Assembly: GCA_027451665.1 (NCBI GenBank)
Contig: DAIDIW010000002.1
Coordinates: 212,254 to 276,253, forward strand
Source of the DNA: Candidatus Kaiserbacteria bacterium
GTDB taxonomy: Bacteria; Patescibacteriota; Minisyncoccia; Phycocordibacterales; Phycocordibacteraceae
Length of the DNA stretch: 64,000 bases
Reading direction: 5' to 3'
The stretch's first letter is position 1; every line of letters begins with the position of its first letter. The position numbers and the translations under genes were made by a program. Of this stretch, positions 19,841 through 59,521 are shown in pieces. The notes under the pieces were generated by a model. That model was not told the origin of the DNA. It was given only the letters and a program-made list of their open reading frames with translations, and searched no databases.

Positions 19841-19869
19841 AACACCACTTTACCACCACCCGTCGTTTT

Positions 19870-21702: not shown

Positions 21703-21703
21703 T

Positions 21704-22063: not shown

Positions 22064-22112
22064 GCTGCCTCGCAGGGTTCCTTGAAAAACACCGACAACA
22101 ACGAAAACAGCT

Positions 22113-23279: not shown

Positions 23280-23393
23280 TAAACTCGTTGACCCACTTGT
23301 GAGCCGTTTGTCGCCAGAGGTTTTATCATTTATAGATAGCGGGGCGAAAGGGGCGGTCTGCCACTATCTGTATTCCTCTGGTTTACGGCATAA

Positions 23394-25031: not shown

Positions 25032-25090
25032 GATTCGAACCTAGATTGACGGGACCAAAACCCGCTGTCCTACCATTAGACGATCCCCCA
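25020..25090 (-). tRNA. tRNA-Gln (anticodon TTG)
   Basis: The reverse complement folds as a cloverleaf: acceptor TGGGGGA/TCCCCCA, anticodon loop TTTTGGT, T-arm GGTTCGAATCC. It resembles E. coli tRNA-Gln. Confidence 0.8.
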
Positions 25091-25112
25091 ATGTGCGGAC
25101 CTACGCACTCTA

Positions 25113-37519: not shown

Positions 37520-38401
37520 TTGTCGGTTAGTGGGTCCATGGTACCATCGCCCTCGATGGCCACCAAGATTCTCTGCATTGCCGGCCCTACCGCTTCTGGG
37601 AAGACGGCGCGCGCGGTGGCGGAGGCTCTCGCGCGCGGTGGCGAGGTCATATCCGTCGATAGCCGTCAGGTCTATCGGGGACTCGATATCGGGACTGAGA
37701 AGATCGCTCCTGCCGAGATGCGCGGGGTGCCGCATCATCTCATCGACATACGCAATCCGGGAGACCCGTACTCTGCCGGCGATTTCGTGCATGACGCCGA
37801 GCGCTGCATCCGCGATATCGTCGCGTGCAGGAAGATACCTATCCTCGCAGGTGGCACCCACTTCTATTTTGATGCGCTCTTCCACGGATTGCCTCCCGAG
37901 ACGCCCGCGAATGCGAAGCTGCGAGCCTTCCTTGAGACGCTTCCGGATGCGGACCTTTACGCGCGGATACAGCAACAGGATCCGAAGCGTGCGGCGCAGC
38001 TCGACCCAAAGAACCGACGACGCCTCATACGAGCGCTCGAGATCATTGAGCGGCACGGCAAAGTGCCGAAACGCACCGCGCTCCCGAAGCCGCCCTATGC
38101 GGCCGAATGGATCTTGCTCGAGCCGTCAGACGAGAAGCTTCGCATCGCGATTCGACATCGCCTTGAGGAAACGCTCGCGAAAGGCCTCATCGAAGAGACA
38201 CGTCGCGTGCGGACTGCGGTTGGTGACGCGCGCCTCGCTGAACTCGGCCTCGAGTATCGAATCATAGGCGAATATATCCGTGGAGAACGTAACGAGGCGA
38301 GTCTCCTTCCGGCCCTCACCTCGAAGCTCTGGCAGTACGCGCGACGCCAGAGGGCGTGGCTAAGAAAGCTGCGCGACGAGACGGTATCGTCCGGTTCCTA
38401 A
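37520..38401 (+). CDS. miaA: tRNA dimethylallyltransferase
   Basis: ILCIAGPTASGKT...ISVDSRQVYRGLDIGT(E)KI. The true start may be an internal Met (MATKIL). Confidence 0.85.
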   Translation: MSVSGSMVPSPSMATKILCIAGPTASGKTARAVAEALARGGEVISVDSRQVYRGLDIGTEKIAPAEMRGVPHHLIDIRNPGDPYSAGDFVHDAERCIRDIVACRKIPILAGGTHFYFDALFHGLPPETPANAKLRAFLETLPDADLYARIQQQDPKRAAQLDPKNRRRLIRALEIIERHGKVPKRTALPKPPYAAEWILLEPSDEKLRIAIRHRLEETLAKGLIEETRRVRTAVGDARLAELGLEYRIIGEYIRGERNEASLLPALTSKLWQYARRQRAWLRKLRDETVSSGS

Positions 38402-38970
38402 TTTGGCAATTCCGTTGCGCCCGGGCAGAAGCTGAAGCCGAGGTTCGTTCCCGAATAGAATTGATTCACGTAATAGGGCGTGCCCACATAATAGTTGATC
38501 GAGCACAGCTGCGTTTGAGGGATGCCGAGCGTCTTTACGAGAAACGTCTGCGCCTCCTCTCGCACGGGACCGAGCGGTTCCTTGAGGAGAACCACGTTGA
38601 AGAACGAATCGCTCGTCGTATACGAGATTGAGAAGTCGGTCGTTGAGGCGGCCGAGGGACACGTTCCATTCGCAAGGCAATAGCCCGTCGATCCAGCGAG
38701 CAGATAGCGGCCAGGGTTCGCGGGATCCGGGACCGTGACGCCATTATGCAAGAAGTCAGTCGTCTGCGCCGTCGTCGAGCCCTGGACGGTTATCGTCGCA
38801 AGCGGGCGTGCAACGGTCGAACCTGCGACCGGAAGGCTGGGCGTCGTCGAGGTAGCGATCACAGGTGGCGTATCCTTCCCCTGGACGGCATAGGCGAGTA
38901 TCACCCCGATAAGGACGAGCATCGCGAATACTCCGAGGATGATGAGGATCGTCCGCTTCATACGCCGCAT
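38398..38970 (-). CDS. hypothetical secreted protein (TM anchor, Thr/Ser-rich, Cys-containing)
   Basis: MRRMKRTILIILGVFAMLVLIGVILAYA then a ~150-aa domain. Confidence 0.45.
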   Translation of the reverse strand: MRRMKRTILIILGVFAMLVLIGVILAYAVQGKDTPPVIATSTTPSLPVAGSTVARPLATITVQGSTTAQTTDFLHNGVTVPDPANPGRYLLAGSTGYCLANGTCPSAASTTDFSISYTTSDSFFNVVLLKEPLGPVREEAQTFLVKTLGIPQTQLCSINYYVGTPYYVNQFYSGTNLGFSFCPGATELPN

Positions 38971-39908
38971 TTGCTAGCCGTAGCCCAATTCTTATAACCG
39001 CCACTATGGTCATAGAGCCACTGCGCAGCGGTGGCGTTGCAGGAGGCGTTGCTTGCGGCGGCTGCGCATGCGTTATAGAGCGTGATTTGCGTCGGATTGG
39101 GCGCGCCACCCGGGAGAACTGCCGTATGGCAGTTCAGACTGCCGCTCACCGCAAAGCCTGCGGTTTGCGCGGCCTGCGTACAGACCGGGAAATTCAAGTT
39201 ATGTCCCGCATCATTCCAGCCGAAGGTAATCTGAAAAAGGCCGGTCGCCGAGCTTCCCGGATTCTTCGCGGTGAGATTGCAGCTGCTCTCTTGCTGAGCG
39301 ATGCACGACATTGCAGTCGCGATCGAGGCGCTTATGCCGTCCGCCTGAATCGCCGCAGGCGAGCAATCTCCGGTCTGTGGCGCGAGCTGCTGCACGCCGT
39401 TCTGCGAGATGCTCGTTACGACATTCGGATTCTGGTATTGCGCCTGGTTAAGCGCAGCTGCGACGGGAAGGCACTGCGGAGCGCCTTGCGAGGAAATGAG
39501 GCTTTGCCAACGCATGCCGAATGGCTGCCCGTTGTTCGGCGTAAGCGCGACCATGATCGCGTCGACGATGAGCCACGCCGAAAGCGCCACGACGATGCCC
39601 ACAATCGTGTTTACGAGGATGCTATTAGCCTTGCGGCGATCTCCAGCGCTCGTGGGGCTCAGCACATAGAGGAAGCCCGCGTAGGCGATCGCGAGCGGCG
39701 CTATGAACACGATCGCGACCGTGAGCGCGAAGCTGATGATGTTGTTGATCACCGTTATGACCATGCCCCAATCGGCGGGACACACGTTCAGATTGTTCCC
39801 TTGCGGGATGATCGGCCCGAAGAACGGAATCGAAGCATGCGCCAGCGGCGGGAGCACGAAAGCTGCAGAGAGAACGAATATGAAGAAAGCCGACGAGCGC
39901 GAACGCAT
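38958..39908 (-). CDS. TrbC/VirB2-like pilin-type N-terminal module fused to a Cys-rich secreted C-terminal domain
   Basis: Signal MRSRSSAFFIFVLSAAFVLPPLAHA, then hydrophobic helices (ITVINNIISFALTVAIVFIAPLAIAYAGFLYV) resembling the pilin paralogs at 50-52.6 kb, then ~200 aa with >10 Cys. Confidence 0.5.
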   Translation of the reverse strand: MRSRSSAFFIFVLSAAFVLPPLAHASIPFFGPIIPQGNNLNVCPADWGMVITVINNIISFALTVAIVFIAPLAIAYAGFLYVLSPTSAGDRRKANSILVNTIVGIVVALSAWLIVDAIMVALTPNNGQPFGMRWQSLISSQGAPQCLPVAAALNQAQYQNPNVVTSISQNGVQQLAPQTGDCSPAAIQADGISASIATAMSCIAQQESSCNLTAKNPGSSATGLFQITFGWNDAGHNLNFPVCTQAAQTAGFAVSGSLNCHTAVLPGGAPNPTQITLYNACAAAASNASCNATAAQWLYDHSGGYKNWATASKCGV

Positions 39909-48377: not shown

Positions 48378-49283
48378 TTGAGGTACGAAATGTGGAGATT
48401 AATCGTCTGGTATGTGCCGATGGCTATAGCTATAACCGTCGGCCGTGTGCTCCAGGTCTGGGGCCTCGGCTACGGCCTCGCGTTCGCATGGCTTGGTTTC
48501 TGCATTTATGCAGGCTCTCTTGTGCTGAGGGAACAGGAATTCGCTGTCATCGAAAGGAATGGGGTATACCGAACGGTATACTTTCGCGGCTGGCATATCC
48601 GGGTTATTGGAGTCGATACCATCCGGAAATACGGCGATATGCGCGCGTCGGAATACGAACTCTATTCTGACGACCGCGCTACCGAAATCGACTTTACCGA
48701 CGGCGTTTCTGCACCCGTGGTAGTGAAGCTTTGGTGGCGCATCGGTAATCCCGGGCACGCTGCCGTGGGTAAGGAGGATTGGAAGGAGCTCACTGAAGCA
48801 GTACAACGGTGGACCTACCGATACCAGGACGCTCGTATCCGCGCCTTCTCACTCGTCGACGCCGAGCTTCGCCCGCGTTTACAGGCGAAGACATCGGATC
48901 AGGCATCGGTCGATCGTAACGGCATTGCTGACGAGACTGTTGCCGCAATCCGCGACAGCTTCGAAGAGATCGGCATCTATGAACCGACGGGCAAAAAACT
49001 GCTCGTTATCGAAGATATCGCCTTTTCAGAGGAGGTCATCCGGGCACGGCAGGAGGTATTGGTAGGCGACAAGCGTGCAAAGGAAATGGAAGCGGAGTCC
49101 AGTGGATACTGGAAGGCGATCAAAAGCATCTCTGAGCATCTCAATATCTCTACTGAAGAAGCACGTAAGATCTACGAAACGCAGCGCGGCCTCGACGCAT
49201 TGCGCGAGATTAAGCCGTCCATGAACTTGGTGGGTAAAGACGTAGGCAGCGTGCTGGCCACGCTAAACCTCGGATCAAAGTAG
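48378..49283 (+). CDS. SPFH domain / band-7 (stomatin-prohibitin-like) family protein
   Basis: N-terminal TM then REQEFAVIERNGVYRTVYFRGWHIRVIGVDTIRKY...VVVKLWWRI, an SPFH-type beta-alpha core. Confidence 0.65.
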   Translation: MRYEMWRLIVWYVPMAIAITVGRVLQVWGLGYGLAFAWLGFCIYAGSLVLREQEFAVIERNGVYRTVYFRGWHIRVIGVDTIRKYGDMRASEYELYSDDRATEIDFTDGVSAPVVVKLWWRIGNPGHAAVGKEDWKELTEAVQRWTYRYQDARIRAFSLVDAELRPRLQAKTSDQASVDRNGIADETVAAIRDSFEEIGIYEPTGKKLLVIEDIAFSEEVIRARQEVLVGDKRAKEMEAESSGYWKAIKSISEHLNISTEEARKIYETQRGLDALREIKPSMNLVGKDVGSVLATLNLGSK

Positions 49284-49292
49284 GAGGATGAA

Positions 49293-49985
49293 ATGACGTT
49301 TAACATCATTTACCTGGCGATCGGGCTTCTGTTCTTAATGCTAGGCACTGTTGCTGCGCTCACGGAGTTCTCCGGGAAAACTATCGGCGGCTTCGTACGT
49401 GGCAAGATACCCTGGCGGACCGTAGGCGAGACATTACTGGTGCTTAGCACATTCGGCGAAGGCCTTTCCGGTTTCTTTCTGTTTGGCGGAGAAATTCCAC
49501 ACTGGAAAAATCCGAGCTTTGCCGAAGTGAGCAGCTGGGCATGGGGAACGAAGCCTGAATGGCTGCCACTCTTCATGTTCCTTGGCCCCGGAGTAATAGG
49601 CACCTTGATGCTTTTGCAGAAGTTTATACCTTCGTGGAAGGACTCCTGTAAGAATCTCATGTTCGTCGCTGCAGGAGTCTACGCGGGCCTCGTGTTCATC
49701 ATCCCGGCAATCTCCTGGATGATAGGAACGAGGACACCTACAGTGCCTTCCGGATTCTATGTGAATGCAGGAGCGGCTTCACCGCGTATTCCGACCAAAC
49801 CGGGATATGCGGTACAGTTTTCCGGCGCTCGCATTGAGACACACTGTCTCTACCGAGATAGCCGCCCGGAAGGCATCGTGGGGAATCCCCTTACACCCTG
49901 CTCAAATGGACCTATGTTCGCTGTCTTTGCTCGAAACATTGGCGCTGATCGCGAATATATTACCTGGCGGTACGTCCTCCGATGA
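49293..49985 (+). CDS. hypothetical multi-TM membrane protein (possible NfeD-like partner of the SPFH protein)
   Basis: Strong RBS AGGAGG. 4-5 TM helices then a soluble C-terminal ~90 aa. The NfeD call is from position and architecture only. Confidence 0.45.
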   Translation: MTFNIIYLAIGLLFLMLGTVAALTEFSGKTIGGFVRGKIPWRTVGETLLVLSTFGEGLSGFFLFGGEIPHWKNPSFAEVSSWAWGTKPEWLPLFMFLGPGVIGTLMLLQKFIPSWKDSCKNLMFVAAGVYAGLVFIIPAISWMIGTRTPTVPSGFYVNAGAASPRIPTKPGYAVQFSGARIETHCLYRDSRPEGIVGNPLTPCSNGPMFAVFARNIGADREYITWRYVLR

Positions 49986-50010
49986 ATGGAGGCCGGCCTC
50001 CGTACTTCAA

Positions 50011-50045
50011 AGCCGCACGACTGTTGTCGTGCGGCTTATTCTTTA
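50011..50045. terminator. hairpin terminator between convergent genes
   Basis: agccgcacgac-tgtt-gtcgtgcggct followed by TATTCTTTA. Confidence 0.5.
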
Positions 50046-50336
50046 CGAGCCCGCCTGTACCGTATGCGTCGGGAGCTGAGACTGAATAGTACCGAGATTG
50101 AAGGTGCCGAGCGCGAGATTCAGGATTCCATATGCACCGAATATGATCACAAAACCGACAAGACCCCAGAGTATCGCCCTCCTCCCCTCTTCGCGCTTAT
50201 GCTCATCTGCGGCGTTCGCAATGAATTCAAATAAACCCCAGATGAATACCACGAAGGCGCCTGCGGTGAGGAGCAGGATGATTGGATTCACGATCTGGAC
50301 GACGACCCTCGTGAGAAAAGCATTCAATACGGACAT
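50043..50336 (-). CDS. TrbC/VirB2-like small pilin-type membrane protein
   Basis: 97 aa with two long hydrophobic helices separated by a charged loop (...FVVFIWGLFEFIANAADEHKREEGRRAILWGLVGFVIIFGAYGILN...). Confidence 0.65.
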   Translation of the reverse strand: MSVLNAFLTRVVVQIVNPIILLLTAGAFVVFIWGLFEFIANAADEHKREEGRRAILWGLVGFVIIFGAYGILNLALGTFNLGTIQSQLPTHTVQAGS

Positions 50337-50384
50337 GGTGCCCTAAGCATACGGCGCCGATGTCCGCGAAACAATACGCGAATA

Positions 50385-50414
50385 GGGAAAACCCGCGGTC
50401 TCCCGCGGGTTTCC
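50385..50414 (-). terminator. intrinsic terminator after the pilin gene at 50441-50809
   Basis: aaacccgcgg-tctc-ccgcgggttt, T-tract on the minus strand. Confidence 0.45.
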
Positions 50415-50440
50415 TGCCGTGACGCTATATCCGAAATCGT

Positions 50441-50809
50441 TTACCCGCCGACCTGCACACCAGCCTGCGGCGTGCCGCCGTTAATGTTCGAGTTATTCCC
50501 GAAGGTAATCGTACCCGTGAGAATGTTCACCAATCCCCAGACCGAAACCATGACGAAGAATCCAATGAGTCCCCAGAGCATCAGGTTCCTGCCGTGCTCC
50601 TTCGGGGCTTCGCTCGTCGCCCCAAGTATGAACGTCTGGAAGGCACCCCAAAGGAACACGATGAATGCGAGAGCGAACAAGACCGGGACGATGATGTTGT
50701 TAATCGTATTGATGATGAATGATCCGACATCTGAGATATTGTTCAGAGCGGCACTCGACACGAGCGGGAGCGCAAAGGCGAGAGCTGATATAGCGAAGGC
50801 TTTTTTCAT
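50441..50809 (-). CDS. TrbC/VirB2-like pilin-type protein with signal peptide
   Basis: Start MKKAFAISALAFALPLVSSAA (ATG 50809), then ...IIVPVLFALAFIVFLWGAFQTF...HGRNLMLWGLIGFFVMVSVWGLVNIL. The track ORF's 5' extension is unlikely. Confidence 0.65.
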   Translation of the reverse strand: MKKAFAISALAFALPLVSSAALNNISDVGSFIINTINNIIVPVLFALAFIVFLWGAFQTFILGATSEAPKEHGRNLMLWGLIGFFVMVSVWGLVNILTGTITFGNNSNINGGTPQAGVQVGG

Positions 50810-50891
50810 AGATGAAATGAGAGGGTAACGATGTAATTGTAGCCTGCGGTATCCTCCGTACAACGGGTCCTCAGGGGCTCTGTGGATAGCC

Positions 50892-51377
50892 TTAGAGCTG
50901 CGGTGGCGTAAGGCCAGCACCTGAGGCGCTCGTGCCCACCGCACCCCCGAGGCCGAGTATCTGGATTACGACCCAAATGATGCCCCAGACGGAGAAAATG
51001 ATCACAAAGCCGGCGATGCCCCACTTGATGATTTCATGGCCCTTCTCGCGATCAGATTCGCTTGCGCCATGTATGATGTAGGCCTTCGCGACACCCCAGA
51101 GGAACACGAGGAACGCGATCGCCACCAGGACCGGCATTGCAATGCTGTTTATGACCAAGAGGATACCGCCTTTATAGAGATTGAGCTCCGTGGTATTTAT
51201 ACCGCTCGGCGCACTGCCGCTTACGTAACTCCCTGTGTTCTGATTCGGCGTGACCGTCTGCAACTGTATGGCACTGTTGTTACCCACCGTAGCTGCAGAC
51301 TGTTGCGCGTGCGCAAGCGGTACGGAAAGCAAAAGCATCAGGACAAGAGCCGGAGCAAGTAGGAAGGTCTTCTTCAT
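50892..51377 (-). CDS. TrbC/VirB2-like pilin-type protein with signal peptide
   Basis: MKKTFLLAPALVLMLLLSVPLAHA ... AMPVLVAIAFLVFLWGVAKAYI...KGHEIIKWGIAGFVIIFSVWGIIWVV. Confidence 0.65.
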   Translation of the reverse strand: MKKTFLLAPALVLMLLLSVPLAHAQQSAATVGNNSAIQLQTVTPNQNTGSYVSGSAPSGINTTELNLYKGGILLVINSIAMPVLVAIAFLVFLWGVAKAYIIHGASESDREKGHEIIKWGIAGFVIIFSVWGIIWVVIQILGLGGAVGTSASGAGLTPPQL

Positions 51378-51380
51378 GGC

Positions 51381-51830
51381 TCAATAGCCGACCGTGCCGG
51401 CAGAATACGAGGTCGGTGTCGGAGGCGCAGAATACCCGGCGAGCCCGAACGTGTTTGCGACGATATTCACGAGGCCCCATATCGAGACCATGACCGCAAA
51501 ACCGACGAGACCCCAGAGGATGAGCCTATGTCCGTGCTCAACAGCCGTTTCGTCGCCGCGCGAGATGATGTATGTACTCGCAACTCCCCAAAGAAACACA
51601 ATGAAAGAGATTGCGAAAACGAGCGGCACGAGCACCGCGTTAATCAGATACAGAATGGTTTGGGCGATATAACAAATCGTCGCGCCGCAGGCCGCAATGC
51701 CTGCGTTACCGCTCCCGAATGAAAAGAACCAGCTGCCATTCGAGCTCGCACCAACCGCGAATGCGGCAAACGCCGCGAACGGGGCGAGTAATGATGCCGC
51801 GAGCAGGCTTGTCCGAATGAGATTCTTCAT
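51381..51830 (-). CDS. TrbC/VirB2-like pilin-type protein with signal peptide (start at internal Met MKNLIRTSLL)
   Basis: ...VLVPLVFAISFIVFLWGVASTYII...HGHRLILWGLVGFAVMVSIWGLVNIV. Coordinates here are +/-1 because of a local mismatch between the printed sequence and the ORF track. Confidence 0.6.
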   Translation of the reverse strand: MKNLIRTSLLAASLLAPFAAFAAFAVGASSNGSWFFSFGSGNAGIAACGATICYIAQTILYLINAVLVPLVFAISFIVFLWGVASTYIISRGDETAVEHGHRLILWGLVGFAVMVSIWGLVNIVANTFGLAGYSAPPTPTSYSAGTVGY

Positions 51831-51856
51831 ACGCTGTAAGTATCGCATCTCCAGGA

Positions 51857-52150
51857 TTATCCGCCGAAGCCGAGTGTTGATAGCAGCAGATTCACGAGGC
51901 CCCATATGCTGAGAAGCACGACGATGCCAAGGAGTCCCCAGAGCGCAAACTCCCGACCCTTCTCGATCTTGCCCTCGTCGCCCTGGGAGAGCAGAAAGTA
52001 CTGGACAATTCCCCAGACGAATACCGCGAGCGCGAGCGCGAAGATTATCGGGACGATAATCGTATTGATGACACCGATAATGCCCGTCGAACCGCTGCCA
52101 ATGAATTGCTTCAAAGTGACGCCTCCCGAAGGATTGATGAAGTTCGGCAT
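51857..52150 (-). CDS. TrbC/VirB2-like pilin-type protein
   Basis: ...IIVPIIFALALAVFVWGIVQYFLL...KGREFALWGLLGIVVLLSIWGLVNLL. Confidence 0.65.
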   Translation of the reverse strand: MPNFINPSGGVTLKQFIGSGSTGIIGVINTIIVPIIFALALAVFVWGIVQYFLLSQGDEGKIEKGREFALWGLLGIVVLLSIWGLVNLLLSTLGFGG

Positions 52151-52151
52151 A

Positions 52152-52589
52152 CTAGCCTCCGACTGAGAGCGCCTGCACGGTCGCGGCTATGCCCTGTGCA
52201 ATCGCTTCCGCGCCGAGAAGAATAAGCGCACCCACGATGGTCCACATGAGCGCTTCCTTTGCCTGCGAGATTTTCCCGGGTTCGCCTTGCGCCGTCACAA
52301 AGAGGAAGCCGATATAGATGAGCATAAAGACGACCACCACGGCGCCAATCTTTACGAAGAACTGCAGGATATCGGTGAGAAGGACCGGGAGGCTCGTGCC
52401 GGCTCCGAGAGGGTTCAGGAGAGTGACATCCGAACCGTTATTCGCCTGACTCCCCGTGGTGTCCACCCCGGTAGTCTGTGTCTGGCTCGTGTCTGCGCCC
52501 GTGGTCTGGGTTGCCGCCTGTGTTCCCAGCGGACTACACACGACAGCGAGCGCAAAGATGAGTACACAAATGAAAATACGAGGGTTCAT
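52152..52589 (-). CDS. TrbC/VirB2-like pilin-type protein with signal peptide and a Thr/Gln-rich spacer
   Basis: MNPRIFICVLIFALAVVCSPLGTQA ... FFVKIGAVVVVFMLIYIGFLFV...AKEALMWTIVGALILLGAEAIAQ. Confidence 0.65.
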   Translation of the reverse strand: MNPRIFICVLIFALAVVCSPLGTQAATQTTGADTSQTQTTGVDTTGSQANNGSDVTLLNPLGAGTSLPVLLTDILQFFVKIGAVVVVFMLIYIGFLFVTAQGEPGKISQAKEALMWTIVGALILLGAEAIAQGIAATVQALSVGG

Positions 52590-53896
52590 TGCAGTAACGA
52601 ATCAAGCGAACGTTCGGCAAGCGAGAGGGCTGTCGCGAGCGTCGTATTTCCCGTTATCACGTTGTTAATCATAGTCGAGAACACTTGATCGGTGTCGGAA
52701 GGCGCTGGGGACAGCCACGCGTGACTATAGAGCGCGGAAGCGTAGGCGACCGCAGCTGTCGCATCATCCGAGGGGGGCGTCGCAAGCGCAGAGCGCGTCG
52801 CCGGTGCAAGACCGGTAGCGGCGGCGCTCGACTGCTGCTCGGTCAGGTTCGTCATGAGCGCGGCCGCCTGATACGCACCCGTGCTGTTTGCGGCCCCCTT
52901 CGGGAGCATAAAAGCGTAAATACGGCCGTACGTGACCTTCGTGGTCGCGGTCGAGGGCTGCGGCAACGGACTCACTGAGAAATCCAGGTTCGGGTTGGCC
53001 TGCACGAAATAGCGCGCCTCGGAGGCATACCCGAGATAGAGCGCGAGATTACCGGCCAGGAAAACCGACTGGGAATCATCGAGCGAACCGTTCCAGGTAT
53101 ACGAGACCTTCGCAGGGTCTGCGAACTGGGTGTAGAAGCGCAGTACCGCTTGACCAGGCGGCACGCCCCCGTTCGCACTGCCGCCCAAGTCAGCGCTGAT
53201 AAGCCCGCTCGGCCCCCGCGCAGAGATGGGTACGCCCGTCTGCAGGAAGAGCGCCGAGAGTATGCCGAGCGCGTCGTGAACGTTCGAGTAGGTACCGAGA
53301 GCGATAAGTCCGCGCGTAATCTGCTGCGACGGAGTAAGCTGCGCCACCTGCGGCACGAGTCCCGTGAGGCCGTCCCAATTCGAAGGCGGCTTCGCGATTC
53401 CGTCCGAAGAGAGAATTGCGTTATTGCTGAAGAGGACGAGCGGATCTACAAGGAACGGGATGCCGTAGTAGCCACCGTCGGGCGCAGTGAAGACGGACGC
53501 ACCGTCGATGAATGTGCTCTTGAACGTATGCGCCGAGAGCTGCGATGACGGGATCTCTTCAAGGAATGGCGCGAGCGTCGCCAGTTCCTGCTGCGAGGCA
53601 AGCACGAGGTCAGGCGCATTTCCGGTCGCGATGGCGCTCGTGAGATCGTTCTTCAGATTCGCCGGATCCTTCTGAACATAGGTCACGCCCTTGAGGCTCT
53701 GGTCGCTCTTCGTGGCTTGCGTGAGTGCTGCGGCCATATCGCTTTTCGACAAGGTGCCCCATATGAGGACCGTCCCTACCTGACTACCACCGCCTCCACC
53801 GCCTCCCGTATAGGAAGCGAACACGAACAGGCCGATTGCCGCACAGAGCGCGAAGACGCCGAGCAGGATGCCTTGGAAGAGCGAGATGTTTTTCAT
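52586..53896 (-). CDS. extracellular solute-binding-protein-like (SBP family 1-like) secreted protein with a poly-Gly linker
   Basis: TM/signal, GGGGGGGS, then LIWGTLSK...GVTYVQKDPANLKNDL...APDLVL and a size of ~400 aa, consistent with the periplasmic binding fold. It overlaps the first pilin gene by 4 nt. Confidence 0.55.
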   Translation of the reverse strand: MKNISLFQGILLGVFALCAAIGLFVFASYTGGGGGGGSQVGTVLIWGTLSKSDMAAALTQATKSDQSLKGVTYVQKDPANLKNDLTSAIATGNAPDLVLASQQELATLAPFLEEIPSSQLSAHTFKSTFIDGASVFTAPDGGYYGIPFLVDPLVLFSNNAILSSDGIAKPPSNWDGLTGLVPQVAQLTPSQQITRGLIALGTYSNVHDALGILSALFLQTGVPISARGPSGLISADLGGSANGGVPPGQAVLRFYTQFADPAKVSYTWNGSLDDSQSVFLAGNLALYLGYASEARYFVQANPNLDFSVSPLPQPSTATTKVTYGRIYAFMLPKGAANSTGAYQAAALMTNLTEQQSSAAATGLAPATRSALATPPSDDATAAVAYASALYSHAWLSPAPSDTDQVFSTMINNVITGNTTLATALSLAERSLDSLLQ

Positions 53897-53898
53897 GA

Positions 53899-54552
53899 TT
53901 ATTGAGGTGCGGTGAATACGATGCCGTAATGATGCGGGCCGGCGCGGAAATCCTTCTGCTTATAGAAACCGCCGCCAATGAAGAGCTCTTCGGCTTCGTA
54001 CTCCGGAATCACCCGTTCAGGCACGGGGCCCATGCCGCCGTAGCTCCCCGCCCAGTCGACGACGAGAAGCTTGCTGCCCGGCTTCAGTACGCGCCGGAGC
54101 TCGCGCAAGAGCCCTGCGCGGTCGTCCACCTGAAATAGCGTGTTTGCAAGCACCGCCGCGTCGAGCGACCGGTCGCGCAGATGGGTGCCGCCGAGTTTCT
54201 CGACATCGCCCCAGATCGTCTCGATTGTGCGCGTGAGCCGGTCATGCGTATTCAGTTTCAGGTGTTTGAGGACGTCTTCCTGGACGTCGATCGCGTATAC
54301 TTTCCCCTGCTTCCCGACCACGTGGGCAAGCGCGCGGGCATAGTGGCCAGAGCCGGCGCCGAATTCGCCGACTTTCATGCCTTCGCTAAGGGCCATCTGC
54401 ATGACATTCTCCATCGGAGAACTGAACGCCGCACTCATGGCTCTAAAAATAGCATGGCCGCCGCTATGCGGCGTCCGTATAGGTGTGTACATGGACGGCG
54501 CATGCTCCTTGGTGTACTCTCCCCGCGGATACCGTTCAGAAAGGAACCTCAT
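53899..54552 (-). CDS. class I SAM-dependent methyltransferase; start uncertain
   Basis: GMKVGEFGAGSGHYARALAHVVGKQGKVYAIDVQ (motif I), ...LLVVDW. Its stop is 3 nt from the SBP-like gene start. Confidence 0.65.
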   Translation of the reverse strand: MRFLSERYPRGEYTKEHAPSMYTPIRTPHSGGHAIFRAMSAAFSSPMENVMQMALSEGMKVGEFGAGSGHYARALAHVVGKQGKVYAIDVQEDVLKHLKLNTHDRLTRTIETIWGDVEKLGGTHLRDRSLDAAVLANTLFQVDDRAGLLRELRRVLKPGSKLLVVDWAGSYGGMGPVPERVIPEYEAEELFIGGGFYKQKDFRAGPHHYGIVFTAPQ

Positions 54553-54994
54553 GTCTCAAGATCCCGTGCGCAAAGCGCTTACGGAACTGTATCGCGCTTC
54601 ATGGAAACACGCGCAAATCTGCATCTCTCGTCGCCACTCCCTGAAGGCGCTCAAGAAAGACTCGCTCTACACTCATGCCGTTCGAGAATGCCGTTCCGTG
54701 AGCGACGCCATCGTCGCCTACCGGAAGGGCACGATTCCGACGGTGCAACACCTCCTAATCCGGAAGCAACGCTTCTTCATGCAGGAAATCCGCGTGCTCA
54801 CAAACGCGCTAGAGGAGCATGCGAGAAGAAGCCTGAGAGGTAGCTCCGTTGACCGCGATGAATACCTTGAAGCAAGGTTACAGTCTAAACTTCTGCATGA
54901 CGAACTTTGTGAAGCGCAGGCGATGATGCAGATGGTCGGGGAGGCCATGCTCGTGCTCAAGCAGCTACAAGATGCCAAACGCGCTCGCAGCTGA
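54551..54994 (+). CDS. hypothetical protein
   Basis: Start MSQDPVRKAL, just outside the divergent MTase gene. 147 aa helical. A terminator follows. Confidence 0.4.
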   Translation: MSQDPVRKALTELYRASWKHAQICISRRHSLKALKKDSLYTHAVRECRSVSDAIVAYRKGTIPTVQHLLIRKQRFFMQEIRVLTNALEEHARRSLRGSSVDRDEYLEARLQSKLLHDELCEAQAMMQMVGEAMLVLKQLQDAKRARS

Positions 54995-55034
54995 GCCCGC
55001 TACGTCGATTCCCCAACATACGTATATATAAAAG

Positions 55035-55069
55035 AACGGGCCGTCCTATGGACGGCCCGTTTTCGATTT
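55035..55069 (+). terminator. rho-independent terminator
   Basis: aacgggccgtcc-tat-ggacggcccgtt followed by TTCGATTTC. Confidence 0.55.
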
Positions 55070-55070
55070 C

Positions 55071-55232
55071 TCAATGACAGATCAGTCGCGTCGCTTCAAG
55101 CGCTACGCCCGCGAGCTCCTCGGCCGTCGTACCGAGCTCCGTCGTAGTATTTGTACGCTCCGCGAGCTCCGCCTCGGAGATATCCCTTCCATAAAACGCG
55201 AACACCATCTTCAGGGATACCGGCCCGCACAT
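55071..55232 (-). pseudogene. truncated peptidase C39-like domain (N-terminal 53 codons only)
   Basis: Manual translation MCGPVSLKMVFAFYGRDISEAELAERTNTTTELGTTAEELAGVALEATRLICH* matches the start of C39/bacteriocin-processing peptidase domains (CG.a.L.M....yG.di....L.e......G.t...l...A...GL). A stop falls before the catalytic His region. Confidence 0.3.
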
Positions 55233-55354
55233 GCCCGCGCGTTCAACGTCTCCTGAAATGGCTTTACATCGAGGATCATGGTTCCAAGGTATTGGCCAGG
55301 TGAGTGAGCACCAGAGCGAGTAATGGAGCAGATCGTACCCTTGGAGCGCTAGCC

Positions 55355-57835
55355 CTAGAGTGCCACCATGGAGGCGATCGAATCGCCTTCGCGCATCTTC
55401 ATGATACGCACGCCCTGCGTCGCGCGACCGGCAGAGCGGATCTCGCCGATCGACGTGCGAATGACCTGTCCTTTCCTCGAGACCACCACGAGTTCGTCAT
55501 CCTTGAAATCGCCTGTGAGCACGCGCGCGCCGATGACTTCGCCGGTCTTCGGCGTCACCTCGGCGGTCTTGATGCCTGAGCCGCCGCGGCCCTGTACCTT
55601 GTATTCAGAAAGCGCCGTGTGCTTGCCGTAGCCCTTGCTCATCACGACGAGGAGCGCGGCACTTTTCGCTTTCTCGGCCGGAATGACTTCGGCGGAGACG
55701 ACCTTGTCACCCTTCTTCACCGTCATACCCTTCACGCCGCCGGCAGTGCGGCCCATCTCGCGAACGTCCTCGACGTCGAAGCGGATGGACTGCCCCTTTG
55801 CAGAAACGAGCGAGACGGTATCTTCCGGGGCCGCAGTGGCGGCGGCGATAAGCGTGTCTCCCGCTTTCAGATTGATTGCGATAATGCCGGACTTGCGGAC
55901 ATCCGAGAACGACTTCGCCGCAACGCGCTTCACGACGCCTTCCTGGGTTACGAGCACGACCGAAGACGCATCGAGCGCCGCACCCTTTGGAACTTCGAGG
56001 ATCCCAGTCACCCACTCGTCCCCTGCAAGCGGCAGGAAGTTCATGATGGACTTGCCCTTGGTCGCACGCTTCCCTTCCGGAATCTCGTACATCTTGAGCT
56101 GATACACCTTGCCCGCGGTCGTAAAGAAGAGGAGATTCGAGTGCGTATTCGCAACGAGGAAGTGGCGCACGACATCCTCTTCCTTGGTCGCGATATCGAC
56201 GACGCCCACGCCGCCGCGCTTCTGGCGGCGATACTCGGAAGGATTCGTGCGCTTCACGTAGCCGCCCTGCGTGAGCACCAGCATGCTTTCCTCGTCGGGC
56301 ACGAGGTCTTCTACGGAAATGTTCTTCACGCCGCCCTTCAGTATCTTCGTGCGCCGGTCATCGCCGTACTTGTCGGCGAGCTCGCGCAATTCGTCCTTCA
56401 CAACCGCGCGGATGTTGTCGCGCGAGGAGAGGATCTTTTTCAAGCTCTTGATGAGCTCCTGAATACTCGCAAGTTCGTCGTCGATCTTCTTGCGCTCGAG
56501 GCCGGCGAGGGTCTGCAGGCGCATCGCGAGGATGGCTGCCGTCTGCCGCTCTGAGAACTTGAACTTCTTCTGGAGCTCGAGGTCCGCGGTCGGCACGTCC
56601 TTCGCAGCCTTAATGATCCTGATGACCTCGTCGATATGATCGAGCGCCTTCGAAAGACCGAGCAAGATGTGCTCGCGCTCCTCCGCCTTGCGCAGATCGT
56701 ATTCGGTGCGCCGCTTCACCACCTCCTCTCGATGGTCGGCAAAGTGTCCGAGCATCGACGGGAGCGAGAGCATCTCCGGAACACCGTCGACGAGCGCGAG
56801 CATGTTGTAGTGGAAGGTGCTCTCAAGTTCTGTGTGCTTGTAGAGCGCATTCAGCACCGCCTGCGGATGCGCAGTGCCCTTCAACTCGATGACGATGCGA
56901 ATGTCGTCCGTGGACTCATCGCGTATATCGCGGATGCCCTCGAGCTTCTTGTCGTTCACGAGGCTCGCGATGCGCGCGATGAGGTCAGACTTCACCACGC
57001 GATACGGGATCGACGTGATGACGATCTGCATGTCCTTCTTGCTGTCGTCGATGATCTCGGCCTCGCCGCGGCAAACGACCGGCCCCTTGCCGGTGGAGTA
57101 GGCGTGCCGCATGTCGGCCTGATTGAAAGCCATGCCGCCCATCGGGAAATCCGGACCTTTCACGAACTCGAGGAGTTCGTCCGTGGTCGCGTCCGGATGG
57201 TCGATGAGATGGATCGCGGCATCCACCACCTCGCGGAGATTGTGCGGAGGGATGTTCGTCGCCATACCGACCGCGATGCCGAGCGTGCCATTCAAAAGCA
57301 GATTCGGGAGAGCGGACGGGAGCACGTGCGGCTCCTTCCGTGTCGCGTCATAGTTCGGGTCCCACTCGACCGTGTCCTTGTCGAGGTCCTGAAGGAGCGC
57401 TTCGCCCACGCGGCTCATCTTCGCTTCGGTGTAGCGCATAGCGGCCGGGCTATCCCCGTCGATTGAACCGAAATTGCCCTGGCCGATGACGAGCGGATAG
57501 CGCGTCGAGAAATCCTGCGCGAGCTTAGCCATCGCATCATACACCGCCACGTCGCCGTGCGGGTGGTACTTACCAAGCACGTCGCCCACGACCGTCGCCG
57601 ACTTGCGGAACTTCGCGGAGGCAGTGAGCCCGATGTCCTTCATCGCAAAAAGGATGCGGCGATGCACGGGCTTCAGTCCGTCGCGCACGTCCGGAAGCGC
57701 ACGACTCGTGATGACCGACATCGCGTAGTCCACATAAGACTGCCGCATCTCTGCAACGATCGGCTGATCTATGACGTTCGCCGCGGTCGGTGCCGCCGAT
57801 ACGTCCTGCGTCTTGTCTTTATCGCCTTTAGCCAT
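55355..57835 (-). CDS. gyrA: DNA gyrase subunit A
   Basis: Active-site region [24 protein letters not shown] and C-terminal beta-pinwheel repeats. 826 aa. Confidence 0.9.
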
Positions 57836-58852: not shown

Positions 58853-58933
58853 ATATGTGCATATTCTACTGCAAAAATGAGCCTCATGCTAGCGTAAGAC
58901 GAGGTGCATTCAGACGCCTAGATAAGGAGTCCC

Positions 58934-59047
58934 GATGAGAATCATCCTCAAGAACCTCGGCGTGCGAGGAGAAGGTTGGGGTGGAGACATTCACCCGATG
59001 ACCGACGAAGGCGAGATCACCGACGGCGGCACACTCCTCTGGGTCTG
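58934..59047 (+). CDS. possible 37-aa small protein
   Basis: AAGGAG RBS 5 nt upstream of ATG. MRIILKNLGVRGEGWGGDIHPMTDEGEITDGGTLLWV. A terminator hairpin lies 30 nt downstream. Confidence 0.3.
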
Positions 59048-59075
59048 AGTCGGATCGCACGGGAAGGGCCGACAG

Positions 59076-59106
59076 GGCGGCGCGTGAGCGACGCGCCGCC
59101 CTTTTC
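59076..59106 (+). terminator. rho-independent terminator
   Basis: gcggcgcgt-gagcg-acgcgccgc followed by CCTTTTC. Confidence 0.5.
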
Positions 59107-59521
59107 ATGCGACGCCGTAACCGGCCTGTGGATACCCGCGCTGCGGGACGCGTCTCTTGCTATGATTCGTTCGTTCGCAGCTCTTTGTGGGCGTTCGCCC
59201 ACCCTGCCCCGCAGCAGCGCGGATGTCGCGAGACGATCCGCAACGAGGAGCAGCTCTCAGTCGCCGGATCACGCTACGGGGTCCGGAGTGACCGGGCGGT
59301 ACCGGAATCGACGGATTCATGGTCCAAGCTCCCGGTCGGGCATTCCTGCCACGCGCGATTACGTGGCCCTTCCCTTCCATGGGAACCCTTTTGACGGCAC
59401 GCCGGACTTCCGGACGTGGCCGTCTTCATTTATAGGACGACGCGTGCTATAGTTCGCCTCGAATGGTGCTGGCAGTAGCGGGGGACTAACCCCCTGCCAT
59501 CGGAGGGCGCTGCCCTCCTGG

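What the first reader, a model, noticed from the sequence alone, without database searches (positions are those of the whole stretch)
50043..54552. Tight operon of five tandem TrbC/VirB2-like pilin paralogs behind an SBP-like secreted protein and a SAM methyltransferase
On the minus strand, 54552 to 50043 reads MTase (3-nt gap), SBP-like protein with a Gly7 linker (4-nt overlap), then four pilin-like genes separated by 1-40 nt. A hairpin terminator follows, then a fifth pilin gene. All pilin paralogs share the signal or TM1, charged loop (HG..L.WGL) and TM2 architecture of conjugative or T4SS pilins but are highly diverged from each other. A sixth pilin-like module is fused to a >10-Cys secreted domain at 38958-39908. 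The cognate VirB4/HerA-like ATPase (586-3465) is 47 kb away. Such expanded pilin arrays are characteristic of CPR/Patescibacteria surface appendage systems. The coupling to an SBP-fold protein and a methyltransferase is not a described arrangement.
Basis: partly seen in the sequence, partly recalled or inferred. Interest (0 to 1): 0.65.

Follow-up and report, generated by a model that had tools for sequence, protein, structure and literature searches.

The report
Conserved six-pilin operon with sugar-binding protein
A tiny uncultured bacterium (Candidatus Kaiserbacteria) carries a deeply conserved gene cluster joining six different conjugation-type pilin-like proteins to a sugar-binding protein and a methyltransferase; pilin arrays of this kind were already known, but this linkage and the fixed six-member set apparently were not.

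Summary
The operon is real, but it holds SIX tandem PF18895 "T4SS_pilin" (VirB2/TrbC-like) genes, not five. They follow a SAM methyltransferase and a membrane-anchored MalE-fold solute-binding protein (SBP).

The organism is a Ca. Kaiserbacteria (Paceibacteria, CPR). VirB2-like pilin arrays in Patescibacteria are already published (Wang 2023; Quinonero-Coronel 2025), so that part is known.

What I found beyond the literature I could search:
- MTase-SBP-pilin order recurs in 74/75 and 57/59 informative Kaiserbacteria-like loci. It also recurs in distant Paceibacteria whose SBP is only 31-40% identical to the window's.
- The six genes are six ancient orthogroups in fixed order: 393/396 best cross-genome hits fall at the same array position. 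P5 and P6 are nearly as conserved as the MTase. This argues against antigenic-variation-type amplification.
- MTase-SBP-P1-P2 are translationally coupled.
- A conserved sigma70-like promoter (TTGACC-N16-TACAAT, preceded by CTATCCACA) sits before P5-P6.

The "cognate VirB4" is instead a VirD4/TraG-type, DUF87-containing ATPase in an unrelated neighbourhood. No virB4 or virB6 lies in the window.

Best reading: a heteromeric T4SS-type pilus or envelope fibre with an associated glycan-binding protein. The mechanism is inferred, not shown. Verdict: new variant of a known kind, moderate interest.

The parts
53899..54552 (-). Class I SAM-dependent methyltransferase. The maximal ORF is 217 aa; the probable start is M39 at 54438, giving 179 aa. 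It has no signal peptide or TM segment, so it is cytoplasmic.
   Evidence: Pfam Methyltransf_11 at 59.9 bits, plus Methyltransf_25/31 and Ubie. The nearest solved structure is 3dh0, of unknown function (E 3e-20). Homologues are 175-194 aa. It is adjacent to the SBP in 74/75 loci. The modal spacing to the SBP start is a 4-nt overlap (35/63).
52586..53896 (-). Membrane-anchored MalE-fold (CUT1-type) solute-binding protein, 436 aa. It has an N-terminal TM helix carrying a conserved S-x-F-Q motif, a variable Gly/Ser linker (G7 in this genome), and a two-lobe SBP domain.
   Evidence: SBP_bac_8 at 75.6 bits. The AF2 model has pLDDT 95.3 and pTM 0.89. Top Foldseek hits are oligosaccharide SBPs: 4r9g, 4qsd, 7bvt (TM 0.73/0.81) and MalE. 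A PDB profile search returns 4r9f and 1elj. There is no conserved Cys or lipobox. No permease or ATPase genes lie in the operon in any locus.
52152..52589 (-). P1: a signal-peptide-bearing, Thr/Gln-rich pilin-like protein of 145 aa. It is the most TrbC/VirB2-like member and the outlier of the set.
   Evidence: PF18895 at 38.1 bits and PF04956 TrbC at 23.6 bits. 15 of 16 orthologues hit TrbC at E<=0.01. Profile comparison with P2-P6 gives hhalign probability 93%. Same-position orthology holds in 66/66 cases.
51857..52150 (-). P2: 97-aa pilin-like 2-TM protein with no signal peptide.
   Evidence: PF18895 at 40.6 bits. Orthology at position 2 in 64/66 cases. It starts 1 nt after the P1 stop.
51381..51830 (-). 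P3: roughly 149-aa pilin-like protein with a signal peptide. An alternative start lies at 51848; the maximal ORF runs to 51905.
   Evidence: PF18895 at 21.2 bits, below the gathering score. It aligns with P2-P6. Orthology at position 3 in 65/66 cases.
50892..51377 (-). P4: 161-aa pilin-like protein with a signal peptide and a variable N-terminal spacer. It is the least conserved member.
   Evidence: PF18895 at 37.2 bits. Orthology in 66/66 cases. Median identity to relatives is 43%.
50810..50891 (-). P4-P5 spacer carrying an internal sigma70-like promoter. Window elements: CTATCCACA box (TATCCACA at 50888..50881), -35 TTGTAC (50863..50858, degenerate here), 16-nt spacer, -10 TACAAT (50841..50836).
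   Evidence: The alignment of 42 spacers and a regex scan of 63 loci find TTGACC-N16-TACAAT in about 60/63 loci, preceded by TATCC[AC]CA about 25 nt upstream. It is the only recurrent (conserved-position) promoter-like match in the operon; a few loci have isolated extra matches to the loose pattern elsewhere. The median P4-P5 gap is 81 nt against 1-18 nt for the other junctions. Similar elements occur in distant Paceibacteria. Function is inferred.
50441..50809 (-). P5: 122-aa pilin-like protein with a signal peptide. It is the most conserved member and a candidate major subunit.
   Evidence: PF18895 at 37.0 bits. Orthology in 66/66 cases, with a median same-position identity of 73%. It lies downstream of the conserved promoter.
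50387..50414 (-). GC-rich 12-bp hairpin, a terminator-like element (CCCGCGG-GAGA-CCGCGGG followed by UUUU) between P5 and P6.
   Evidence: strand folding gives an MFE of -31.7 kcal/mol for the 76-nt region folded, z = -3.1, with 0 of 200 shuffles as stable. It is atypical: the median P5-P6 gap in 65 relatives is 3 nt and the maximum is 105.
50043..50336 (-). P6: 97-aa pilin-like 2-TM protein with no signal peptide. It is the last gene of the array and is highly conserved.
   Evidence: PF18895 at 38.6 bits. Orthology in 66/66 cases. Median identity is about 69-70%.
50010..50037 (.). Bidirectional terminator hairpin shared with the convergent plus-strand genes.
   Evidence: Listed by the terminator scan. 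Strand folding gives an MFE of -22.7 kcal/mol for the 51-nt region folded, z = -5.6.
38958..39908 (-). Unlinked seventh PF18895 module. It consists of a signal peptide, a pilin-like 2-TM domain and a 10-Cys C-terminal domain with an ES...GLFQ lysozyme/SLT-like motif.
   Evidence: PF18895 at 27.4 bits. NCBIfam Mbov_0395 pilin-like, weak. Weak hits to SLT, Phage_lysozyme2 and Destabilase at E 1e-3 to 5e-3, all below cut-offs.

Best explanation
This is a core, vertically inherited surface-appendage locus of Paceibacteria; the organism here is a Ca. Kaiserbacteria.

What the data show:
- Six non-redundant VirB2/TrbC-like (PF18895) proteins are encoded in fixed order behind a cytoplasmic SAM methyltransferase and a TM-anchored MalE-fold oligosaccharide-type binding protein.
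- MTase, SBP, P1 and P2 are translationally coupled.
- P5-P6 have their own conserved sigma70-type promoter.

What I infer:
- The six proteins insert in the membrane as helical hairpins, with termini outside and the basic loop in the cytoplasm.
- A T4SS encoded elsewhere in the genome extracts them into a hetero-oligomeric T4SS-type pilus or envelope-spanning fibre. P5 and P6 would be the abundant structural subunits, and P1-P4 would be minor, initiating or adaptor subunits.
- The SBP, held at the membrane or fibre base by its conserved TM helix, binds a glycan or oligosaccharide. This could be host cell-surface recognition or capture of host-derived sugars.
- The MTase modifies a component, most plausibly the cytoplasm-exposed pilin loop or an N-terminus.

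Confidence by step:
- About 0.9 that this is a conserved MTase-SBP-six-pilin operon of the Patescibacteria VirB2-array kind.
- About 0.5 that the SBP acts together with the pilins.
- About 0.25 that the MTase acts on the pilins or the SBP.
For: Identity of the parts:
- Pfam hits for all parts.
- P1 orthologues hit both PF18895 (16/16) and TrbC PF04956 (15/16).
- SBP fold: AF2 pLDDT 95.3, with top PDB matches to oligosaccharide SBPs.

Conservation:
- The SBP family is 58-85% identical in 80 species-level genomes.
- The MTase is adjacent in 74/75 loci. Exactly six pilins follow in 57/59 loci.
- The same block occurs in distant Paceibacteria whose SBP is only 31-40% identical to the window's.

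Fixed, non-redundant set:
- 393/396 best cross-genome hits fall at the same array position.
- Identity of window proteins to relatives: P5 73% and P6 69%, against GyrA 78%, MTase 70% and SBP 62%.

Coupling:
- Modal spacings are -4 nt (MT-SBP), -4 nt (SBP-P1) and +1 nt (P1-P2).
- The gyrA-MTase spacer varies from 48 to 3825 nt and takes IS200-type insertions. The packed unit therefore starts at the MTase.

Other:
- An internal promoter is conserved in about 60/63 loci.
- The SBP's N-terminal TM region is as conserved as its globular part and carries an S-x-F-Q motif.
- Literature: six essential PF18895 pilins lie in the Southlakia T4SS cluster, and a pilus or conduit for uptake has been proposed for them. 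Pilin arrays of 2-11 genes are reported in 383 assemblies.
Against: - No virB4, virB6, virB3 or virB8 lies within the 64-kb window. The only T4SS-superfamily ATPase is coupling-protein-like and sits in an unrelated neighbourhood.
- The pilin profiles find no solved VirB2/TraA pilin by sequence. TrbC scores are below Pfam's gathering cut-off.
- P2 and P6 lack signal peptides.
- The whole neighbourhood (S1, lactamase_B_3, gyrA ... Band_7, rbfA, infB) is also syntenic across the class. Gene order alone is therefore weak evidence for function.
- The Southlakia array has no SBP or MTase, so these two genes are not general requirements of such arrays.
- There is no expression, proteomic or imaging data, and I could not run a multimer model.
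Confidence: 0.5

Rival explanations
1. Passive neighbours. The pilin array is a genuine T4SS pilin array, but the SBP is an ordinary receptor of a CUT1 sugar ABC importer whose permease and ATPase are encoded elsewhere. The MTase is a housekeeping enzyme. They stay next to the array only because this chromosomal region is frozen in Paceibacteria.
For: - Extended synteny of housekeeping genes surrounds the locus across the class.
- The SBP has a canonical, high-confidence MalE fold most similar to real transporter SBPs.
- The MTase's nearest relatives are generic small-molecule or unknown methyltransferases.
- The Southlakia pilin array lacks both genes.
Against: - ATGA-type overlaps and 1-nt gaps join MTase-SBP-P1-P2 in most of 65 genomes.
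- The adjacent gyrA-MTase spacer is highly variable and tolerates IS insertion, yet no insertion separates the MTase, the SBP and the pilins.
- No permease or ATPase partner lies next to this SBP in any of more than 85 loci.
- The SBP's TM anchor is unusually conserved.
Confidence: 0.25
2. Membrane complex, not a pilus. The six 2-TM proteins stay in the cytoplasmic membrane as a hetero-oligomer (6 x 2 TM). Together with the anchored SBP they form a binding-protein-dependent uptake or sensing device. This would be a functional analogue of the Sulfolobus bindosome or of the archaeal Ced import system, independent of a classical T4SS.
For: - The stoichiometry-like set of six orthogroups is fixed.
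- The SBP is translationally coupled to the first of them.
- No virB4 or virB6 is nearby.
- Monoderm T4SSs normally lack pili (PMC12102498, PMC12857230).
- There is precedent for sugar-binding proteins assembled by a pilin-like system (PMC3047682), and for Ced, a dedicated DNA-import system with several small Ced components (CedA/CedA1/CedA2; PMC11868833 abstract). That CedA1/CedA2 are VirB2-like is my own recollection, not taken from a paper read here.
Against: - Homology is to pilus-forming VirB2/TrbC.
- A separate strong promoter for P5-P6 suggests unequal subunit abundance, which is typical of major and minor pilins.
- No energising ATPase lies in the operon.
- The SBP signal is not a class III (prepilin-type) signal.
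Confidence: 0.12
3. Variation array. The tandem paralogs are interchangeable variants that broaden host range or evade recognition, as proposed for Bartonella and Anaplasma VirB2 arrays and suggested for Patescibacteria.
For: - Identity between paralogs in the array is low (32-46% to P5; P1 is lower).
- The published interpretation takes this view.
- The N-terminal extensions of P1, P3 and P4 vary in length.
Against: - One-to-one positional orthology holds in 393/396 comparisons.
- The copy number is constant at six in 57/59 genomes.
- Purifying conservation of P5 and P6 is close to that of the MTase (70%) and approaches GyrA (78%).
- There is no sign of recent duplication or gene conversion.
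Confidence: 0.05

Closest known systems
VirB2-like pilin arrays of Patescibacteria T4SSs (Ca. Southlakia epibionticum SEML1_0014-0019; arrays of 2-11 genes in 383 assemblies; PMC10633639, PMC12102498, PMC12857230)
   Same: - Tandem PF18895/PF04956-type small 2-TM proteins with low mutual identity.
- Six members, as in Southlakia.
- A monoderm CPR host.
- No relaxase context.
   Different: - The array here is not inside or beside the virB4/virB6 cluster.
- It is fused into an operon with a MalE-fold SBP and a SAM methyltransferase next to gyrA.
- It has an internal conserved promoter.
- It is shown here to be six fixed orthogroups across a class, rather than a variable amplification.
- The published survey reported arrays as most abundant in Microgenomatia and Saccharimonadia, not Paceibacteria.
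TrbC/VirB2 conjugative pilins of diderm T4SSs (PF04956; T-pilus, RP4, F-like pili)
   Same: - Signal peptide plus two hydrophobic helices joined by a short basic loop.
- P1 orthologues give sub-threshold but consistent TrbC profile hits.
- Pilin-modifying enzymes are a known theme (F-pilin acetylation by TraX, cyclisation by TraF; this is my own knowledge).
   Different: - There is no adjacent virB operon.
- There are six distinct subunits instead of one.
- Two members lack signal peptides.
- No sequence match to solved pilins.
- The candidate modifying enzyme is a methyltransferase, which is not a known VirB2 modification.
CUT1-family ABC-transporter solute-binding proteins (MalE, CpMnBP1, Atu4361, cyclodextrin-binding proteins)
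   Same: - Two-lobe MalE fold (TM-score 0.65-0.73).
- SBP_bac_1/8 profiles.
- Many invariant aromatic and Asn/Gln residues, typical of sugar clefts.
   Different: - 14-18% identity only.
- A TM anchor with a conserved S-x-F-Q motif instead of a lipobox or a cleaved signal.
- It is never next to permease or ATPase genes.
- It is always followed by pilin-like genes.
Sulfolobus bindosome assembly system (Bas) (PMC3047682)
   Same: This is a functional analogy only: sugar-binding proteins whose surface deployment depends on small pilin-like proteins.
   Different: - Bas uses type IV-pilin-like proteins, a PilB/PilC-type machine and class III signal peptides.
- Here the small proteins are VirB2-type and the SBP has no prepilin-type signal.

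Membership tests
T4SS_pilin (PF18895) / TrbC-VirB2 (PF04956) pilin family | Profile match at or above the curated threshold | tested here: met
   PF18895: P1, P2, P4, P5 and P6 score 37.0-40.6 bits against a gathering score of 26.6. P3 scores 21.2, below it. The fusion protein scores 27.4. PF04956: P1 scores 23.6-25.3 against 27.9, which is below threshold, but 15/16 P1 orthologues match at E<=0.01.
T4SS_pilin (PF18895) / TrbC-VirB2 (PF04956) pilin family | Signal peptide followed by two TM helices joined by a short positively charged loop | tested here: inconclusive
   All six have the two-helix hairpin with a charged loop. P1, P3, P4 and P5 have Sec-type signal peptides with AxA-like sites, read from the sequence. 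P2 and P6 have none. No signal-peptide predictor was available.
T4SS_pilin (PF18895) / TrbC-VirB2 (PF04956) pilin family | Encoded with a T4SS (virB4, virB6, virB3 nearby) | tested here: not met
   No VirB4, VirB6 or VirB3 profile hit among the ORFs of at least 150 aa that were profile-scanned across the 64-kb window (most, not all, of them). None appears in the flanks of more than 85 related loci. A T4SS elsewhere in the genome is expected from the literature but was not seen here.
T4SS_pilin (PF18895) / TrbC-VirB2 (PF04956) pilin family | Detectable similarity to experimentally solved conjugative pilins | tested here: not met
   Profile searches with the P1 alignment and the P2-P6 alignment against all PDB sequences gave only chance hits with E>0.1.
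T4SS_pilin (PF18895) / TrbC-VirB2 (PF04956) pilin family | Polymerises into an extracellular filament | not testable with these tools
   This needs cryo-ET, proteomics or genetics.
Patescibacteria VirB2 pilin array (PMC12102498) | Two to eleven tandem pilin genes, low pairwise identity, Patescibacteria genome | tested here: met
   Six tandem genes. Identity to P5 is 32-46%, and P1 is lower. Homologues are named Kaiserbacteria or Paceibacterota.
ABC-transporter solute-binding protein, CUT1 / SBP_bac_1-8 | Two-lobe periplasmic-binding-protein fold and family profile | tested here: met
   SBP_bac_8 at 75.6 bits. AF2 pLDDT 95.3. Foldseek probability 1.00 to oligosaccharide SBPs.
ABC-transporter solute-binding protein, CUT1 / SBP_bac_1-8 | Genetic linkage to cognate permease (MalFG-type) and ATPase | tested here: not met
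   None lies in the operon or its flanks in any locus. The only ABC transporter in the window is a polar-amino-acid type on a low-GC island. Whole genomes could not be searched.
ABC-transporter solute-binding protein, CUT1 / SBP_bac_1-8 | Lipoprotein signal or cleaved signal peptide | tested here: not met
   There is no conserved Cys or lipobox. The protein has a conserved uncleaved-type TM helix plus a Gly/Ser linker.
Class I SAM-dependent methyltransferase | Rossmann-type SAM-binding domain profile | tested here: met
   Methyltransf_11, 25, 31 and 12 all score above their cut-offs. PDB 3dh0 matches at E 3e-20. The substrate cannot be tested here.
Bindosome (Bas) type system | Class III (prepilin) signal on the SBP and type IV-pilin-like partners with PilB/PilC homologues | tested here: not met
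   The SBP N-terminus (K-x-x-S-x-F-Q plus a TM helix) has no prepilin motif. Its partners are VirB2-type. The operon has no PilB or PilC homologue.
VirB4 ATPase (claim for 586-3465) | VirB4/CagE/TraC profile and linkage to virB3/virB6 | tested here: not met
   The hits are TraG-D_C (29.7 bits), weak TraD, VirD4-like CD1115 and TrwB, and in homologues DUF87 plus DUF8128. Its neighbours are DedA, dienelactone hydrolase, ZIP and DsbA here, and an 820-aa mostly soluble protein in a relative.

The most novel reading that the evidence does not exclude
The locus encodes a T4SS-derived 'harvesting' appendage peculiar to Paceibacteria. It would be a heteromeric VirB2-type fibre whose base or tip carries a MalE-fold lectin-like protein. 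It would capture host-surface or host-released oligosaccharides and feed them inward without an ABC permease. This would give the enigmatic, essential Patescibacteria T4SS an import function. The pilins (or the SBP) would be methylated by the co-encoded MTase, which would be a new pilin modification.
Probability: 0.1. Interest if true: 0.85.

Novelty: new variant of a known kind. Interest (0 to 1): 0.55.

Why it matters
The function of the Patescibacteria T4SS and its pilin array is an open question. It is essential in the one species with genetics, has no relaxase, and its cargo is unknown.

This analysis adds three things:
- In Paceibacteria, the largest class, the array is a fixed set of six orthogroups. 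That points to a heteromeric structure rather than interchangeable variants.
- The array is hard-wired to an oligosaccharide-type binding protein and a methyltransferase.
- It has a conserved internal promoter with an upstream operator-like box.

Together these give concrete hypotheses about glycan recognition or uptake and about pilin modification. They also give handles for experiments: the recombinant SBP for ligand screening, the P5/P6 proteins as antigens for imaging, and the CTATCCACA box for finding the regulator.

If the SBP link is only positional, the finding reduces to a well-characterised example of a known array.

Tried and rejected
- A first AF2 run of the SBP with 22 close homologues gave pLDDT 59 and was discarded. 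A 140-sequence alignment fixed it.
- Profile searches of the pilin alignments against PDB sequences gave only chance hits: COX2 and FliL.
- phmmer of the ATPase against PDB found nothing at E<=0.01. At E<=10 only weak hits appeared: the top hit was a DnaA-related protein (2kjq, E 0.025), with TrwB at E 0.28.
- Three exact-sequence look-ups of the window's ATPase failed. A relative's locus was used instead. Its 820-aa neighbour has only one or two hydrophobic segments, so it is not VirB6-like.
- The built-in promoter scan found no site in 49500-55400, because the window's -35 is degenerate. The promoter became visible only by comparison across genomes.
- A second TATCCACA at 59127-59134 has no promoter after it. 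It is compatible with chance: 19 of 100 shuffles gave at least two matches.
- The second MTase-SBP adjacency at 17773-19336 involves an unrelated MTase (BLASTP E 2.3) and a family-3 SBP with its own permease and ATPase. It is not a paralogous module.
- Rfam found no RNA element in the operon.
- I could not test linkage outside Paceibacteria.

Full report
**Observation**

On the minus strand the window carries a compact gene string:
- MTase: 54552..53899. Its homologues are 175-194 aa, so the true start is probably M39 at 54438.
- SBP-like protein of 436 aa: 53896..52586.
- Six small ORFs, not five: P1 52589..52152, P2 52150..51857, P3 51830..51381, P4 51377..50892, P5 50809..50441 and P6 50336..50043.

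The junctions are a 2-nt gap, a 4-nt overlap, then gaps of 1, 26, 3, 82 and 104 nt. The last spacer contains a 12-bp GC-rich hairpin followed by U residues (MFE of the 76-nt region folded -31.7 kcal/mol, z = -3.1). A second hairpin closes the array at 50037..50010. Otherwise the description holds.

**Identity of the parts**

All six small ORFs match Pfam PF18895 (T4SS_pilin). Five exceed the gathering score and P3 scores 21.2 bits. P1 also gives a sub-threshold TrbC/VirB2 (PF04956) hit, and 15 of 16 P1 orthologues do so at E<=0.01. P1 and P2-P6 are related at profile level (hhalign probability 93%).

The alignment shows TM1, a charged loop (E..G[HR]..LWGL) and TM2. P1, P3, P4 and P5 begin with Sec-type signal peptides. 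P2 and P6 do not.

The SBP is SBP_bac_8 at 75.6 bits. With a 140-sequence alignment, AlphaFold gives pLDDT 95.3. Foldseek places the model among oligosaccharide-binding CUT1 proteins: CpMnBP1, Atu4361, cyclodextrin- and maltodextrin-binding proteins and MalE, at 14-18% identity (sequence level).

The SBP has no lipobox. Its N-terminus is a TM helix with a conserved S-x-F-Q motif, and that helix is as conserved as the globular part. The linker, Gly7 in this genome, is variable.

The MTase is a class I SAM enzyme whose nearest solved relative has no known function.

**Comparative genomics**

SBP homologues come from Ca. Kaiserbacteria and Paceibacterota at 58-85% identity. In 80 species-level loci I found the following:
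- The MTase is adjacent to the SBP in 74/75 informative cases.
- Exactly six pilin-HMM ORFs follow in 57/59 cases.
- Best cross-genome hits fall at the same array position in 393/396 cases.
- Identity of the window's proteins to relatives is GyrA 78%, MTase 70%, SBP 62%, P1 55%, P2 60%, P3 58%, P4 43%, P5 73% and P6 69%.

The six genes are therefore six ancient orthogroups under purifying selection. They are not recently amplified or interchangeable variants.

A library-wide search shows that the SBP family extends to 792 cluster representatives at E<=1e-30. Five loci with SBPs only 31-40% identical to the window's show the same block:
- S1, lactamase_B_3 and gyrA upstream;
- MTase, SBP and 4-6 pilins;
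- a convergent unknown gene plus Band_7, then rbfA and infB.

In these distant loci the P1-like gene, the P5-like gene (penultimate) and the P6-like gene (last) are still recognisable.

This wide synteny is a caveat, because order alone does not prove function. Two features single out MTase-SBP-pilins as a unit:
- ATGA overlaps or 1-nt gaps are the modal spacing at MT-SBP, SBP-P1 and P1-P2.
- The neighbouring gyrA-MTase spacer ranges from 48 to 3825 nt and accepts IS200-type insertions.

**Transcription architecture**

The P4-P5 spacer has a median of 81 nt, while the other junctions are 1-18 nt. In about 60 of 63 loci it holds TTGACC-N16-TACAAT, preceded about 25 nt upstream by CTATCC[AC]CA. 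This is the only recurrent (conserved-position) promoter-like match in the operon; a few loci have isolated extra matches to the loose pattern elsewhere. Degenerate versions persist in distant Paceibacteria.

In the window the elements are TATCCACA at 50888..50881, -35 TTGTAC at 50863..50858 and -10 TACAAT at 50841..50836.

I infer two transcription units: MTase-SBP-P1-P4 and P5-P6. P5 and P6 would then be the highly expressed, most conserved subunits. The window, and possibly only its closest relative, additionally has the terminator-like hairpin between P5 and P6. Most genomes have 0-4 nt there.

**Other T4SS-related genes in the window**

The 959-aa protein at 586-3465 has Walker A and B motifs and no TM segment. 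It matches TraG-D_C, and weakly matches TraD, VirD4-like CD1115 and TrwB. Its homologues carry DUF8128 and DUF87 and are named 'type IV secretory system conjugative DNA transfer family protein'.

It sits among DedA, dienelactone hydrolase, ZIP and DsbA genes. In a relative it is followed by an 820-aa mostly soluble protein and then by housekeeping genes. It therefore fits the dispersed T4CP homologues reported for Patescibacteria. It is not a VirB4, and nothing ties it to the pilin operon.

The ORF at 38958..39908 is a seventh PF18895 module. It is fused to a 10-Cys domain with an ES...GLFQ motif and weak SLT/lysozyme hits, which is possibly VirB1-like.

**Literature**

- Six essential PF18895 pilins lie in the Ca. 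Southlakia epibionticum T4SS cluster, with no SBP or MTase there (PMC10633639).
- Arrays of 2-11 VirB2-like genes were catalogued in 383 Patescibacteria assemblies. They were interpreted as possible variation devices and reported as most abundant in Microgenomatia and Saccharimonadia (PMC12102498).
- A review proposes a pilus acting as a conduit for uptake (PMC12857230).
- None of these papers, nor two further full-text searches, mentions a solute-binding protein or methyltransferase linked to the array. The library is limited to open-access papers and bioRxiv.

**Mechanism**

Shown:
- composition, order, coupling and conservation of the locus;
- the SBP fold;
- the conserved promoter motif.

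Inferred:
- The six hairpin proteins insert with termini outside and the basic loop in the cytoplasm.
- A T4SS encoded elsewhere polymerises them into a heteromeric VirB2-type fibre.
- P5 and P6 are the major subunits, because they have their own promoter and the highest conservation. P1-P4 are minor subunits.
- The SBP is tethered by a conserved TM helix and produced in fixed ratio with P1. It would act as the glycan-recognition module, for host-surface binding or capture of host oligosaccharides.
- The cytoplasmic MTase can reach only cytoplasmic segments or pre-export proteins. The pilin loop or an N-terminus is therefore the most plausible target, but this is the weakest step.

Rivals:
- SBP and MTase as passive neighbours (0.25).
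- A non-filamentous membrane complex or bindosome-like device (0.12; analogy PMC3047682).
- A variation array (0.05). This is contradicted by the orthology pattern.

**Verdict**

The pilin interpretation is supported at family level. The VirB4 claim is not supported.

Pilin arrays themselves are known. The following appear new:
- a class-wide, fixed six-orthogroup array detached from virB4;
- its hard-wiring to a MalE-fold SBP and an MTase;
- its conserved internal promoter and upstream box.

This is a new variant of a known kind, with interest about 0.55.

Noticed in passing
window 38398-39908 (minus strand): A seventh PF18895 pilin-like module is fused to a 10-Cys C-terminal domain with an ES...GLFQ lysozyme/SLT-like motif (only weak Pfam hits, E about 1e-3). 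It overlaps by 13 nt a downstream 190-aa TM-anchored secreted protein with no family. It may be a VirB1-like wall hydrolase tethered by a pilin domain.
   Followed up: partly
window 586-3465 (minus strand); L093 10001-15290: A 926-959-aa P-loop ATPase (DUF8128 + DUF87 + TraG-D_C) is 72-75% identical in nearly all of the 120 listed homologues (named Kaiserbacteria/Paceibacterota where named; range 71-83%), nearly as conserved as GyrA. It has no TM segment. In a relative it is followed by an 820-aa mostly soluble protein with no Pfam hit. The window's left end seems to lie inside that gene. The function of this two-gene module is unknown.
   Followed up: partly
window ~12000-25100: This is a low-GC island (43-53% against about 59%). 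It ends at a serine recombinase (23394-25031) abutting tRNA-Gln (25019-25090). It also carries a Phage_CRI/G2P-like rolling-circle replication protein (22113-23279), DUF5680 and DUF4352 proteins, and a polar-amino-acid ABC transporter (16432-18675). It looks like an integrated mobile element.
   Followed up: partly
window 20484-20606 (minus strand): A LOOT RNA motif (Rfam RF03000, 80.5 bits, full length) lies just upstream of the DUF4352 gene (19870-20430), inside the low-GC island.
   Followed up: no
window 17773-19336 (minus strand): A second Methyltransf_11 gene lies directly upstream of, and overlaps, a solute-binding protein gene (SBP_bac_3), followed by its permease and ATPase. This MTase is unrelated in sequence to the operon's MTase (BLASTP E 2.3). 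The repeated MTase-SBP adjacency may be coincidence.
   Followed up: partly
window 50881-50888, and the equivalent position in about 60 related loci: A CTATCC[AC]CA box lies about 25 nt upstream of the -35 of the P5-P6 promoter. It is conserved across Kaiserbacteria and, as (A)TCCACA, in distant Paceibacteria. It is a candidate regulator-binding site. No regulator was identified.
   Followed up: partly
window 54438-55355; L003 6642-7328; L005 6628-7320: The gyrA-MTase spacer is a variable hotspot of 48-3825 nt. It holds an IS200-type Y1 transposase in several relatives. In the window it holds a terminator after gyrA (55035-55061) and a plus-strand ORF (54377-54994) that overlaps the over-long N-terminal extension of the MTase ORF.
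   Followed up: partly
window 48378-49985 (plus strand): A Band_7/SPFH protein and a 230-aa 3-TM protein with no family converge on the pilin array. A Band_7 gene next to a smaller unannotated gene occupies the same convergent position in several related loci, including three distant Paceibacteria (L005, L087, L088, L089); the other loci show unannotated genes there. Orthology of the 230-aa partner was not tested. A possible link to the membrane complex was not explored.
   Followed up: no
window 58853-59521: About 670 nt without a convincing ORF lie between the divergent lactamase_B_3 and S1 genes. There is no Rfam hit at gathering thresholds. Two relatives examined (L003, L005) also have 300-470-nt gaps there.
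   Followed up: no
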